The notes under the pieces were generated by a model. That model was not told where the DNA came from. It worked only from the letters and a program-made list of their open reading frames with translations, and did no database searches. Shown piece after piece: positions 20,332 to 20,801 of a stretch of 28,069 bases of DNA. A program made the translations under genes and the position numbers. Source of the stretch: a virus (lineage: Duplodnaviria > Heunggongvirae > Uroviricota > Caudoviricetes); the IMG/VR virus record IMGVR_UViG_2874920711_000005; one strand, given 5' to 3'. Within the stretch, counting starts at the first letter, position 1, and each line of letters starts with the position of its first letter.

Positions 20332-20486
20332 AAGTGAATTTTGTGATGCGGTGAATGCGGCTAAGCGCACGCGGCACAGTTAAAAGTCATGTTAGTCCTT
20401 ATTGGTTTGGGTGGGAAAGCCGACTGTAATTGTTAACTGGTTAACGTCACCTGGAGGCACCAGGCACCGCATCACAAAATTCACTT
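20332..20486. repeat. 22-bp perfect inverted repeat pair (AAGTGAATTTTGTGATGCGGTG at 20332..20353 and its reverse complement at 20465..20486) enclosing 111 bp
   Basis: Read directly from sequence; enclosed segment contains GTTAACTGGTTAAC and CCTGGAGGCACCAGG sub-palindromes. Confidence 0.6.
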
Positions 20487-20508
20487 CGGTGATGAAAGGT
20501 GAGAGAAA

Positions 20509-20601
20509 ATGTTGAATGTAGCTATTGAAAACCAGAACGGGTGGAATTATAGTGCACCTGCACCTCATAAAACGGGTGCCGGGATTGCTACCCGACGATG
20601 A
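20509..20601 (+). CDS. Possible 30-codon small ORF/leader peptide (MLNVAIENQNGWNYSAPAPHKTGAGIATRR)
   Basis: AAGGTGAGAG SD 4-5 nt upstream of ATG, placed right after the inverted repeat and right before a terminator; not hydrophobic. Confidence 0.25.
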   Translation: MLNVAIENQNGWNYSAPAPHKTGAGIATRR

Positions 20602-20612
20602 CTACTGCGCAT

Positions 20613-20636
20613 AACCGCGCTCAGGCGGTTTTTTTA
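20613..20636 (+). terminator. Rho-independent terminator-like hairpin (AACCGC-gctcag-GCGGTT followed by T-run)
   Basis: 6-bp stem, 6-nt loop, then TTTTTTT. Confidence 0.5.
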
Positions 20637-20801
20637 TGCGTCAAGCACAGCCACATTCAGATTATGGTGGGGCGTGCAGGGCAGCCGCAAGGCTGGCCGG
20701 TTTCGGTAGTCACCGGTTGTAGCAACCCTGTGCGTCTCACCACCCATGAGATTGCTACCTCTGGTGGTGAGTTATTTAAACTGACTATCGAGGCTGCCAT
20801 C

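What the first reader, a model, noticed from the sequence alone, without database searches (positions are those of the whole stretch)
20332..20640. 22-bp perfect inverted repeat pair enclosing 111 bp, followed by SD, 30-codon ORF and terminator upstream of the Rha gene
AAGTGAATTTTGTGATGCGGTG (20332..20353) and its exact reverse complement (20465..20486) bracket a segment with internal palindromes, then AAGGTGAGAG, a 30-codon ORF and an intrinsic terminator. This could be a structured regulatory RNA, an attenuator-like leader, a paired binding site for a regulator such as the Rha protein, or a small MITE-like element. It lies directly next to the IS630 copy B insertion, in the early-left operon where lambdoid phages keep nut sites and N, neither of which is recognisable here.
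Basis: seen in the sequence. Interest (0 to 1): 0.6.

Follow-up and report, generated by a model that had tools for sequence, protein, structure and literature searches.

The report
Structured prophage leader RNA, long stem
The 22-bp inverted repeat is the long closing stem of a conserved, folded RNA element in the leader of the early-left operon of Rac/Qin-type prophages (about 85% of E. coli genomes, including K-12 upstream of kilR and dicB); it is a divergent, unannotated relative of the prophage RNA STnc100, and its biochemical role is still unknown.

Summary
**Observation:** real. A perfect 22-nt inverted repeat (20332-20353 / 20465-20486) encloses 111 nt; none is expected by chance.

**What it is:** not a MITE, an operator pair or a peptide attenuator. 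It is the extended closing helix of a ~155-nt structured RNA on the + strand.
- The fold has a bulged hairpin, a variable insert, a probable pseudoknot and a conserved CCNGG-AGGCA-CCNGG hairpin.
- It is a divergent branch of Rfam STnc100/PasD: 34 bits against a gathering score of 47, but 87 bits with a model built here.
- Compensatory changes and strand-specific G·U pairs support the helix.

**Context:** fixed. It follows the terminator of a DicF/KilS-type sRNA (ortholog at 20236-20331) and lies ~10-20 nt before the ribosome-binding site of the first early-left gene (dicB, kilR, or the IsrK/Rha module here). No empty alleles and no target duplication were found.

**The "30-codon ORF and terminator":** these are the IsrK promoter and sRNA (20560-20635). 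The ORF is the frameshifted 5' end of an Ash-Rha reading frame that is intact in relatives. A C4-type RNA (20660-20747) and Rha follow. This is a known RNA-controlled antirepressor module.

**Mechanism (inferred):** the helix is an RNase III processing stem. Evidence is only indirect.

**Verdict:** new variant of a known kind; moderate interest.

The parts
20236..20331 (+). Ortholog of the K-12 Rac sRNA KilS (a DicF-type sRNA) with its intrinsic terminator (stem about 20291-20325, T-run to 20331). It abuts the repeat.
   Evidence: It aligns with K-12 KilS b4833, NC_000913.3 1418405-1418502. Rfam DicF scores 28.6 bits at 20275-20325, below the gathering score of 48. A terminator-like site lies at 20293-20320 plus tail. 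KilS was verified by northern blot and has its own TSS (PMC8175672).
20332..20353 (+). 5' arm of the 22-bp closing helix P1
   Evidence: The arm is nearly invariant in 91 distinct subfamily copies.
20357..20372 (+). P2: hairpin with a bulged A and a conserved loop (GCGGC-UAAGC-GC-A-CGC)
   Evidence: Found by RNAalifold. It is 100% paired in the subfamily. Four of its 5 pairs are compensatory across species (CCCC/GGGG versus GCG/CGC).
20377..20383 (+). CAGUUAA: 5' strand of the helix to 20433-20439 (a pseudoknot with the P4 loop)
   Evidence: It is invariant in the subfamily. The equivalent helix in other subfamilies uses different sequences, averaging 7.2 bp against 5.4 bp in shuffled controls.
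20384..20421 (+). Variable insert (differs in length and sequence between copies)
   Evidence: Alignments A2 and A4.
20422..20448 (+). P4 hairpin: GACUGUAA (20422-20429) with UUAACGUC (20441-20448). Its loop holds UUAACUG (20433-20439), which pairs with 20377-20383.
   Evidence: It is 98.4% paired in the subfamily, with compensatory Rac-type (GACUGUAA/UUGCAGUC) and Qin-type (GGCGUUAA/UUAACGUC) versions. The window carries the Rac-type 5' strand with the Qin-type 3' strand, giving 2 mismatches.
20450..20464 (+). P5: CCUGG-AGGCA-CCAGG hairpin, the most conserved motif of the family
   Evidence: It is CCGGG/CCCGG in most family members and CCUGG/CCAGG here, a compensatory change.
20465..20486 (+). 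3' arm of P1
   Evidence: Variants carry a one-base bulge, U·G and G·U pairs, and double compensatory changes.
20496..20511 (+). Shine-Dalgarno-like AAGGUGAGAG and ATG, at the position where dicB and kilR start in other prophages
20509..20601 (+). 30-codon ORF: the frameshifted 5' end of an Ash-Rha reading frame. The window has CCC at 20591-20593 where relatives have CCCC.
   Evidence: The frame is 280-283 codons in 6 of the 8 other distinct homologs. Pfam gives Ash PF10554 and Phage_pRha PF09669. No complete E. coli genome shares the deletion.
20525..20553 (+). Sigma-70-type promoter of IsrK (TTGAAA, 17 nt, TATAGT)
   Evidence: 10 of 12 positions match. It would place the start site at the first position of the Rfam IsrK match. 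The promoter sequence differs by at most one base across the 9 homologs.
20560..20635 (+). IsrK sRNA with its intrinsic terminator (stem 20613-20630)
   Evidence: Rfam RF01394, 54.2 bits against a gathering score of 50. Mechanism in Gifsy-1: PMC4825925.
20660..20747 (+). C4-type antisense RNA (equivalent to STnc1160/orf45' of Gifsy-1 and to C4 of P1/P7)
   Evidence: Rfam RF01695, 75.7 bits against a gathering score of 45.
20803..21356 (+). Rha-family antirepressor-like protein. This is the short form from the internal ATG; the longest open frame in the window starts at 20598.
   Evidence: Phage_pRha domain at residues 89-173 of the 252-aa frame. ORF table.

Best explanation
**What it is.** The inverted repeat is the extended closing helix (P1) of a ~155-nt structured RNA encoded on the + strand. 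The RNA is a divergent branch of the prophage STnc100/PasD family.

**Where it sits.** It is a fixed part of the leader of the early-left operon of Rac/Qin-type lambdoid prophages. It lies between the leaky intrinsic terminator of a DicF/KilS-type sRNA and the ribosome-binding site of the first protein gene. That gene is kilR, dicB, or, as here, the Ash-Rha frame that carries IsrK and C4.

**How it is made.** It is transcribed when RNA polymerase reads through the sRNA terminator, starting either from the KilS promoter or from the operon promoter further upstream.

**Shown here.** The fold, its conservation and covariation, the strand, the fixed context and the family relationship.

**Inferred.** The 22-bp helix is the length an RNase III dimer accommodates, and I propose it is an RNase III processing stem. 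A staggered double cut in it would:
- release the folded core as a discrete RNA of roughly 130 nt;
- sever the upstream sRNA read-through from the downstream message;
- leave the downstream mRNA, often for a toxic division inhibitor, with a new monophosphorylated 5' end a few bases before its ribosome-binding site, so tuning (probably lowering) its expression.

**Open.** What the conserved core itself binds or does is not known.

**The rest of the finding.** The 'ORF plus terminator' to the right is the IsrK sRNA gene with its promoter. Together with the C4-type RNA and Rha it forms a known RNA-controlled antirepressor module.
For: **Structure**
- MFE -62.4 kcal/mol, z = -6.4.
- In 47 subfamily copies 98% of cells are paired, against 33-41% when partners are slid. 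Eight pairs show changes on both sides, 5 of them in the 22-bp helix, and 0 of 500 shuffles reach the observed values.
- In 120 distinct cross-species copies 96.5% of cells are paired and 13 of 17 pairs are compensatory.
- Explicit compensatory variants exist in the long helix: GUGAAU/UUCAC becomes GCGAAU/UUCGC, and GAUG/CAUC becomes GGUG/CACC.

**Strand**
- U·G and G·U pairs occur in the helix.
- The K-12 Rac copy folds to -61.1 kcal/mol (z -5.4) on the operon strand and -43.1 (z -2.7) on the other.

**Family**
- Rfam STnc100 aligns to 20337-20478 with the arms as its outer helix.
- Model R1, built from canonical and divergent copies, scores 87.1 bits here.
- Canonical members score 49-132 bits for STnc100.

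**Context**
- Found in 4,624 of 5,426 E. coli genomes.
- Annotated loci always show the same position.
- 79 of 90 distinct copies follow a T-run terminator. The downstream gene is dicB-like in 44, kilR-like in 25 and isrK/rha-type in 10.
- No empty allele among 51 full-length DicF-dicB loci.

**RNase III**
- The dimer accommodates about 22 bp (PMC6212723).
- Only this branch, embedded in an mRNA leader, has a 19-22-bp P1; other family members have 6-10 bp.
- Gordon et al. list position 1649470, inside the Qin copy, with 26 reads in the rnc mutant and 0 in wild type.
- No transcript longer than ydfABC-dicF is detected in wild type (bioRxiv 10.1101/2023.04.14.536235).

**IsrK and C4**.
Against: - No direct cleavage mapping in the helix was found.
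- The Gordon entry rests on 26 reads in a long list with many weak entries. It may reflect higher expression or stability in the mutant and not a cut at this site.
- The second K-12 entry (1418510) maps 8 nt upstream of the KilS 5' end, not in the element.
- The RNase III site documented for DicF lies upstream of DicF.
- Many copies carry a one-base bulge in the helix, which can alter or block RNase III cutting.
- Sequence antideterminants for RNase III were not assessed.
- The ribosome-binding site is not sequestered in the predicted fold, so the effect on the downstream gene is unproven.
- The window's P4 helix has two mismatches, so this particular copy may be slightly impaired.
- The function of the conserved core is unknown.
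Confidence: 0.55

Rival explanations
1. It is the same structured RNA, but the long helix is only a folding clamp. It would keep the core folded between an upstream terminator hairpin and ribosomes loading about 20 nt downstream. The element would act through its core, either as an Hfq-associated trans-acting sRNA like PasD/STnc100 or as a cis element affecting stability or translation, without RNase III.
For: STnc100 and PasD are Hfq-associated, northern-verified RNAs with RIL-seq targets. The core is conserved far beyond the long-stem branch. The long P1 occurs only where an ORF starts right after the element. Many copies have a bulge in the helix.
Against: A helix of about 22 bp in an expressed E. 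coli RNA is the size RNase III binds. No terminator follows the element, so no discrete 3' end is encoded (Rfam model positions 155-206 are unmatched). The annotated KilS ends before the element.
Confidence: 0.3
2. It is a cis-acting RNA that modifies RNA polymerase, a put-like processive antiterminator. It would replace the missing N/nut system in Rac/Qin-type phages and also act in late-operon leaders.
For: Family members sit in leaders of long phage operons. The window's branch follows the early-left promoter region. Canonical copies and arrays lie between Q-type antiterminator genes and the lysis genes. No N or nut is recognisable. In the window an intrinsic terminator (IsrK) lies downstream.
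Against: The family model finds nothing in the HK022 region that holds putL and putR at E<=1. put RNAs are about 70 nt with two stem-loops (PMC9378689). The element lies downstream of the DicF/KilS terminator, not upstream of it. Late operons already have Q. Tandem arrays of up to six copies are hard to explain this way.
Confidence: 0.07
3. It is a MITE or other mobile repeat whose terminal inverted repeats are the 22-nt arms.
For: Perfect terminal inverted repeats, a size of 155 bp, many copies per genome (up to 9), and an IS630 copy nearby.
Against: The flanks are TTTTTA and CGGTGA, so there is no target duplication. The syntenic position is the same in all annotated loci and in 79 of 90 copies. 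No empty site was seen among 51 sampled full-length DicF-dicB loci. Copy number tracks the number of lambdoid prophages. The IS630 ends (ATAGCTGCGC...) are unrelated to the arms. The arms covary as an RNA helix.
Confidence: 0.02
4. It is a pair of inverted DNA binding sites for a regulator (Rha, or the RacR/DicA-type repressor) that loops or blocks the 111 bp between them.
For: The two 22-bp sites are perfectly symmetric, and the left arm is nearly invariant across copies.
Against: Right-arm variants keep pairing through G·U and compensatory changes and not through sequence identity. There is a strong strand asymmetry in folding energy. The same helix position in the wider family has unrelated sequences. 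The element occurs with dicB, kilR or rha downstream, so it is not tied to Rha.
Confidence: 0.02
5. It is a leader-peptide attenuator: translation of the 30-codon ORF controls the terminator at 20613-20635.
For: An SD-ATG with good spacing, a short ORF ending 12 nt before the terminator stem, and the terminator followed by the Rha gene.
Against: The ORF is 280-283 codons in 6 of the 8 other homologs, and the short form results from a 1-nt deletion seen only here. The terminator belongs to IsrK, which has its own promoter inside the ORF. No alternative antiterminator pairing was found. In Gifsy-1 the control works through IsrK acting in trans on orf45.
Confidence: 0.03

Closest known systems
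Rfam RF02076 STnc100 and the PasD sRNAs of EPEC (prophage-encoded, Hfq-associated RNAs)
   Same: Both have the same core fold: a closing helix ...GGUG/CACC..., an AAU junction, a bulged 5' hairpin with a conserved loop, a variable middle, and a CCNGG-AGGCA-CCNGG hairpin stacked on the closing helix. Both are carried by prophages of Enterobacterales. Intermediate sequences link the two, and one covariance model scores both.
   Different: The element scores 34.1 bits, below the Rfam gathering score of 47, and the K-12 copies are not called at all. The 3' third of the Rfam model (positions 155-206) is unmatched. The closing helix is 19-22 bp, not 6-10 bp. The location is the early-left leader just before an ORF, not the late leader between Q and the lysis genes.
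RNase III site in the phage lambda N leader (between nutL and the N start), and RNase III processing stems that excise 16S and 23S rRNA (from my own knowledge of the literature, not tested here)
   Same: A long helix lies in the leader of the early-left operon immediately upstream of the first gene's ribosome-binding site. As in rRNA operons, a long-range helix brackets a folded domain.
   Different: There is no sequence or structural homology. No nut site or N is present. Cleavage here is inferred, not shown.
Gifsy-1 isrK-orf45-anrP module, related to the P1/P7 immI c4-icd-ant system and the P4 seqA-CI-seqC system
   Same: The right half of the finding matches this module: an IsrK match above the Rfam threshold with promoter and leaky terminator, then a C4-type RNA, then a Rha-family antirepressor-like gene.
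   Different: Here and in E. coli relatives, one long frame (Ash plus Rha) runs through the RNA genes. In Gifsy-1 a separate orf45 ends with a stop codon overlapping the anrP start. The module sits in the early-left operon behind the structured element. The window's copy is frameshifted.
HK022 put antiterminator RNAs
   Same: They are cis-encoded structured RNAs in the leaders of early phage operons of a lambdoid phage that lacks N-type antitermination.
   Different: put RNAs are about 70 nt with two stem-loops. The family model gives no match in the HK022 early region.
Bacterial MITEs (for example IS630/Tc1-type derivatives)
   Same: Small size, perfect terminal inverted repeats, and multiple copies per genome.
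   Different: There is no target duplication, no empty sites and a fixed context. The arms are unrelated to the IS630 ends and covary as an RNA helix.

Membership tests
Rfam STnc100 (RF02076) | Score at or above the curated gathering score (47 bits) | tested here: not met
   34.1 bits, E = 1.1e-5, model positions 21-154 of 206. The K-12 Qin and Rac copies are not reported at the gathering threshold.
Rfam STnc100 (RF02076) | Shared secondary structure (closing helix, bulged 5' hairpin, 3' CCNGG-AGGCA-CCNGG hairpin) supported by covariation | tested here: met
   The Rfam alignment pairs the two arms as its outer helix. RNAalifold on a mixed alignment recovers the helices. Model R1 scores 87.1 bits here, and canonical members score 49-132 bits for STnc100.
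Rfam STnc100 (RF02076) | A discrete sRNA with its own 3' part (model positions 155-206) | tested here: not met
   That part of the model is unmatched. The element is followed by an SD and ATG, not a terminator.
Rfam STnc100 (RF02076) | Hfq association and expression as a stable RNA | not testable with these tools
   Reported for STnc100 and PasD. No data were found for this branch.
RNase III substrate | An intramolecular helix of about two turns (~20-22 bp) | tested here: met
   22 perfect pairs here, and 19-22 pairs (sometimes with one bulge) in 91 copies. The dimer accommodates ~22 bp.
RNase III substrate | rnc-dependent cleavage in vivo or in vitro | tested here: inconclusive
   Published Table S1 lists 1649470, inside the Qin copy, with 26 reads in the rnc mutant and 0 in wild type. 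The Rac entry, 1418510, lies outside the element. No nucleotide-resolution data were available.
RNase III substrate | Absence of sequence antideterminants in the proximal and distal boxes | not tested
   The cleavage position is unknown, so the boxes cannot be placed.
MITE | Terminal inverted repeats | tested here: met
   22-nt perfect arms.
MITE | Target-site duplication flanking the element | tested here: not met
   The flanks are ...CCCTTTTTA and CGGTGATG..., with no direct repeat.
MITE | Dispersed insertion sites, with filled and empty alleles | tested here: not met
   The context is the same in annotated loci. 79 of 90 copies follow a T-run terminator. The 51 sampled full-length DicF-dicB loci all span 389-403 nt against a 220-nt query.
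HK022 put-type antiterminator RNA | Homology or shared architecture with putL and putR (~70 nt, two stem-loops) | tested here: not met
   No match of model R1 in HK022 23000-32500 at E<=1. Size and architecture differ.
IsrK sRNA (RF01394) | Score at or above the gathering score, with its own promoter and intrinsic terminator | tested here: met
   54.2 bits against 50 at 20560-20635.
C4 antisense RNA (RF01695) | Score at or above the gathering score, upstream of an antirepressor gene | tested here: met
   75.7 bits against 45 at 20660-20747. A Rha domain follows downstream.
Leader-peptide transcription attenuator | A short conserved leader ORF and mutually exclusive terminator/antiterminator pairings | tested here: not met
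   The ORF is 280-283 codons in relatives. No alternative pairing with the terminator appears in the fold.

The most novel reading that the evidence does not exclude
The STnc100-type fold would be a distinct, so far unexplained class of phage leader RNA module with a biochemical activity of its own, not merely a base-pairing sRNA. Candidates for that activity include binding RNA polymerase, the ribosome, a ribonuclease or a host defence factor. Several features point that way:
- an invariant junction and loop nucleotides combined with freely varying peripheral helices;
- a probable pseudoknot;
- placement in the leaders of both long phage operons;
- same-strand tandem arrays of up to six copies between Q and the holin gene, interleaved with tRNA genes.

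In the Rac/Qin branch the module would have acquired an RNase III excision stem, so that it can be released from inside an mRNA leader that precedes toxic division inhibitors.
Probability: 0.2. Interest if true: 0.75.

Novelty: new variant of a known kind. Interest (0 to 1): 0.5.

Why it matters
- **Unannotated but widespread.** The element is in most E. coli genomes, including both classic K-12 loci for prophage division inhibitors (dicB in Qin, kilR in Rac). It is nevertheless unannotated and missed by Rfam at its curated threshold.
- **A possible extra layer of silencing.** These toxic genes are known to be silenced by repressors, Rho and sRNA terminators. A conserved, pseudoknotted leader RNA with an RNase III-sized stem suggests a further post-transcriptional layer. 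Simple experiments in K-12 could test it.
- **A link within a puzzling family.** The early-left leader is tied to STnc100/PasD elements that fill late-operon leaders, sometimes as tandem arrays next to tRNA genes. The function of that family is unknown despite its abundance in pathogenic E. coli, Shigella and Salmonella prophages.
- **Annotation.** The '30-codon ORF' should not be called a gene. Long 'Rha family' proteins in relatives run through two RNA genes.

Tried and rejected
- **HK022 put RNAs.** I fetched HK022 23.0-32.5 kb and searched it with the family model. There was no hit.
- **MITE.** Rejected after the copy search, context survey, flank inspection, IS630-end comparison and empty-site test.
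- **The known DicF RNase III site.** I first recalled a 3' processing site downstream of DicF. The current literature places the mapped site upstream of DicF, at the 5' end of the 190-nt species, so it does not explain this helix.
- **Genome-wide RNase III maps.** The nucleotide-resolution study has no supplementary tables held. The coverage-based study gives one weak entry inside the Qin copy and one near the Rac copy that maps outside the element.
- **Rho-dependent terminator for kilR.** The mapped terminator trac is inside racR, not in this leader. The OxyS-nusG-kilR paper does not map the leader.
- **Orientation relative to naive ORF calls.** The result was uninformative (48 same strand, 49 opposite) because of spurious ORFs. 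I used annotated records and Pfam instead.
- **Sigma-54 promoter.** I considered this because a ChIP study mentions RpoN at STnc100. By eye the conserved GGCAC motifs do not fit the -24/-12 spacing. I did not pursue it.
- **RBS occlusion.** The MFE fold leaves the SD and ATG unpaired.
- **Coding potential inside the 111 nt.** I rejected this because the middle region varies by indels of many lengths.
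Full report
**1. The observation.** The sequence AAGTGAATTTTGTGATGCGGTG lies at 20332-20353 and its exact reverse complement at 20465-20486, with 111 nt between them. Allowing three mismatches, these are the only two matches in the 28-kb window, and none occurred in 100 dinucleotide-preserving shuffles. The SD-like AAGGTGAGAG (20496-20505), the ATG at 20509, the 30-codon ORF (20509-20601) and a terminator-like hairpin with a T-run (20613-20630 plus tail) are all present. One detail is wrong. IS630 copy B spans about 18861-20010, so its end is 321 nt from the repeat and not directly next to it.

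**2. What lies to the right.** Rfam at curated thresholds places the IsrK sRNA at 20560-20635 (54.2 bits, gathering score 50). It places a C4-type antisense RNA at 20660-20747 (75.7 bits, gathering score 45).
- A sigma-70-type promoter (TTGAAA, 17 nt, TATAGT; 20525-20553) sits where it would start transcription at the first position of the IsrK match.
- So the 'terminator' of the finding is the IsrK terminator, and the '30-codon ORF' overlies the IsrK promoter and the 5' half of IsrK.
- This is the arrangement described for Gifsy-1 (PMC4825925). There IsrK is a 77-nt sRNA with a leaky terminator. Read-through enters orf45, which holds a processed RNA of about 80 nt, and then the antirepressor anrP. 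IsrK acting in trans switches on orf45 translation, which is coupled to anrP translation.

**3. The ORF.** In 6 of the 8 other distinct homologous loci the ATG after the repeat opens a 280-283-codon frame that runs through IsrK, its terminator and the C4-type RNA into Rha. The other two give 210 codons and 34 codons, the latter in a sequence containing an N.
- PGAP annotates this long frame as 'Rha family phage regulatory protein'.
- Pfam finds an Ash domain (PF10554, 75 bits) over the RNA genes and Phage_pRha (PF09669) behind it.
- The window has CCC at 20591-20593 where its nearest relative (L245) has CCCC. That deletion truncates the frame to 30 codons.
- No complete E. coli genome among 5,426 shares the deletion; the best matches span 325 nt for the 324-nt query.
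- The 30-codon ORF is therefore not a conserved unit. Whether the long Ash-Rha frame is translated, or merely stays open because the RNA genes are conserved, was not resolved.

**4. What lies to the left.** Positions 20236-20331 align with the K-12 Rac sRNA KilS (b4833, NC_000913.3 1418405-1418502). KilS was verified by northern blot, has its own transcription start and is Hfq-associated (PMC8175672). It ends at the T-run that abuts the repeat. Rfam sees it as a weak DicF relative (28.6 bits, gathering score 48). In Qin, DicF itself occupies this position.

**5. The repeat is not a mobile element.**
- The 155-nt unit occurs in 4,624 of 5,426 E. coli genomes, with a median of 2 places and up to 9 per genome.
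- Every annotated context examined is the same. The unit lies downstream of the immunity region and the small ydfA/B/C or sieB genes, and about 20 nt upstream of the first early-left gene. That holds in K-12 Rac and Qin, other strains, and free phages such as Tritos and 75/02 Stx.
- Among 90 distinct copies with flanks, 79 follow a T-run terminator. The next ORF is dicB-like in 44, kilR-like in 25 and the IsrK/Rha type in 10.
- There is no target duplication.
- The IS630 ends are unrelated to the arms.
- A DicF+dicB junction query found no allele lacking the element. The 51 sampled full-length matches all span 389-403 nt against a 220-nt query.

**6. It is a structured RNA on the + strand.** The unit folds to -62.4 kcal/mol (z = -6.4) with the 22-bp helix closing the structure.
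- *Fold.* I wrote a full structure onto an alignment of 47 distinct copies of this branch: P1 of 22 bp, P2 a bulged hairpin, P4, P5, and a pseudoknot between CAGUUAA (20377-20383) and UUAACUG (20433-20439).
- *Counts.* 98% of cells pair, against 33-41% when partners are slid by 1-3 columns. Eight pairs show changes on both sides, five of them in P1. None of 500 shuffles reaches the observed values.
- *Compensatory changes in P1.* GUGAAU/UUCAC becomes GCGAAU/UUCGC, and GAUG/CAUC becomes GGUG/CACC. The common right-arm variant has one bulged base plus U·G and G·U pairs.
- *Strand.* Those wobble pairs would be mismatches on the other strand. The K-12 Rac copy folds to -61.1 kcal/mol (z -5.4) on the operon strand and -43.1 (z -2.7) on the opposite strand.
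- *P4.* It covaries between a Rac type (GACUGUAA/UUGCAGUC) and a Qin type (GGCGUUAA/UUAACGUC). The window carries the Rac 5' strand with the Qin 3' strand, giving two mismatches, as if recombination had occurred inside the element.

**7. Family.** With relaxed thresholds Rfam aligns STnc100 (RF02076) to 20337-20478, with the two arms as its outer helix, but at 34.1 bits, below the gathering score of 47.
- *Distribution.* The core motif CACCNGGAGGCACCNGGCACC retrieved at least 120 viral contigs, and at least 120 loci from species-representative genomes, nearly all of them Enterobacterales.
- *Closing helix.* Across these copies it varies in sequence and is 6-10 bp long in most.
- *Consensus fold.* RNAalifold on 44 diverse copies recovers P1, P2 and P5 with covariation.
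- *Covariance model.* A model built from that alignment scores the window at 87.1 bits and finds a single copy in the window. On 120 distinct cross-species copies, 96.5% of cells pair and 13 of 17 pairs are compensatory. That alignment was fitted to the model, which favours the structure.
- *Pseudoknot helix.* A helix between the segment after P2 and the P4 region is supported family-wide by many different sequence pairs, averaging 7.2 bp against 5.4 bp in shuffled controls.
- *Rfam calls.* Canonical members score 49-132 bits for STnc100. The K-12 Qin and Rac copies are not called at the gathering threshold.
- *Published data.* STnc100 and the related PasD RNAs are prophage-encoded, Hfq-associated RNAs with no established function.

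**8. Where the rest of the family sits.** Canonical copies lie in late-operon leaders, between a Q-type antiterminator gene (PF06530 or DUF1133) and the holin or lysozyme genes or the sialate esterase moron. They are often beside tRNA genes. In Pantoea, Superficieibacter, Enterobacter and Citrobacter they form same-strand tandem arrays of up to six copies, some abutting. A close relative of the window's branch sits in the P7 ban operon, 38 nt before terB and after two tRNA genes. Only the DicF/KilS-adjacent branch has the 19-22-bp closing helix.

**9. Mechanism.** What is shown is a conserved fold, transcribed with the operon, placed between a leaky sRNA terminator and the first ribosome-binding site. 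What follows is inference.
- *Proposal.* The RNase III dimer accommodates about 22 bp of duplex (PMC6212723). This helix is that length, perfect here, and maintained by compensatory change. I therefore propose an RNase III processing stem. It would release the folded core, cut the message free of the upstream sRNA read-through, and give the downstream mRNA a new 5' end just before its ribosome-binding site.
- *Indirect support.* A coverage-based screen lists position 1649470, inside the Qin copy, with 26 reads in the rnc mutant and none in wild type. No transcript extending beyond dicF is seen in wild type.
- *Cautions.* The read count is low. The companion entry near kilR (1418510) lies 8 nt upstream of KilS, not in the element. 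The documented DicF RNase III site is upstream of DicF. Many copies have a bulge in the helix. The ribosome-binding site is not occluded in the predicted fold.
- *Probabilities.* I put about 0.9 on the identity (a structured leader RNA of the STnc100 family) and about 0.45 on the RNase III step. The overall figure of 0.55 reflects both. The function of the conserved core remains open.

**10. Rivals.**
- The same RNA acting without RNase III, as a clamp-stabilised Hfq-associated sRNA or cis element, is the main alternative (0.3).
- A put-like antiterminator is attractive by position. However, the family model finds nothing in the HK022 early region, put RNAs are smaller, and the element follows the sRNA terminator instead of preceding it.
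- MITE, operator-pair and leader-peptide attenuator readings are contradicted by the data in sections 3, 5 and 6.
- The Rho-dependent terminator that silences kilR (trac) lies inside racR, not here.

**11. Verdict.** The finding is real and more than chance. It is a divergent, unannotated branch of a known but functionally unexplained prophage RNA family, with a distinctive long closing helix and a fixed place in the leader of dicB, kilR or the IsrK/Rha module. The right-hand half of the finding is a known RNA-controlled antirepressor module, and its ORF was misread because of a frameshift. Novelty: new variant of a known kind. Interest: 0.5.

Noticed in passing
window 20236-20331 (+): This is an ortholog of the K-12 Rac sRNA KilS, a DicF-type sRNA with its own terminator. 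Rfam DicF scores only 28.6 bits against a gathering score of 48, so annotation pipelines would miss it. The region between the IS630 end and this sRNA, which would hold its promoter, is intact.
   Followed up: partly
window 20591-20593: There is a 1-nt deletion (CCC where relatives have CCCC) that breaks the long Ash-Rha reading frame annotated in relatives. It is absent from all 5,426 complete E. coli genomes searched. It is either a real lineage-specific frameshift or a homopolymer sequencing error.
   Followed up: partly
window 20509-20802, and L245:3185-4033: The Pfam Ash domain (PF10554) coincides with the IsrK and C4-type RNA genes. The protein family may be built on translations of conserved RNA genes, or the region may be dual-coding. 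Long 'Rha family' annotations in RefSeq run through two RNA genes and a terminator.
   Followed up: partly
window 18861-20010 and 1-~1001: There are two IS630 copies. Copy B is inserted between the ydfA/B/C-like genes (18260-18700) and KilS, and it truncates a small minus-strand ORF (19997-20101). It therefore separates the operon promoter from the leader. The copies differ at offset 847 and diverge in ungapped comparison after offset ~1001. The transposase frame of copy B reads out of the element (399 aa).
   Followed up: partly
window 20422-20448: The P4 helix of the element is a hybrid: Rac-type 5' strand with Qin-type 3' strand, giving two mismatches. This suggests recombination between prophages inside the element. 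The same hybrid is present in L002 and L245.
   Followed up: partly
L266:944-1994, L305:4132-5932, L299:2059-3606, L290:6395-7839, L265:6364-7007, L252:3110-4491: STnc100-type elements form same-strand tandem arrays of up to six copies, some abutting. They lie between Q-type antiterminator genes and holin or lysozyme genes in Pantoea, Superficieibacter and related genera, sometimes interleaved with tRNA genes. No published description of such arrays turned up in the papers read.
   Followed up: partly
L127:2494-2623 (phage P7, AF503408.1 about 72446-72575): A close relative of the window's branch, with a 9-bp closing helix, sits in the P7 ban operon. It follows tRNA-Asn and tRNA-Thr and lies 38 nt upstream of terB. 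Phage D6 has one as well.
   Followed up: partly
window 25493-25671 (-), 13470-13645 (-), 10809-11116 (-): Rfam finds the RalA antitoxin RNA (216 bits), a sok-type antitoxin RNA (117 bits) and four tRNA genes elsewhere in the window. Unlike many lambdoid prophages, this one has no STnc100 copy beside its tRNA cluster.
   Followed up: no
NC_000913.3 1418510 (K-12 Rac): A published candidate rnc-dependent site (41 reads in the mutant, 0 in wild type) lies 8 nt upstream of the KilS 5' end. This parallels the known RNase III site upstream of DicF, so KilS may be processed like DicF.
   Followed up: no
window 22354-24060 (+): The 568-aa ORF has only a weak, partial match to exonuclease VIII (Exonuc_VIII, 30 bits, N-terminal 98 residues) and a long acidic, low-complexity middle. 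It may be a diverged or truncated RecE.
   Followed up: no
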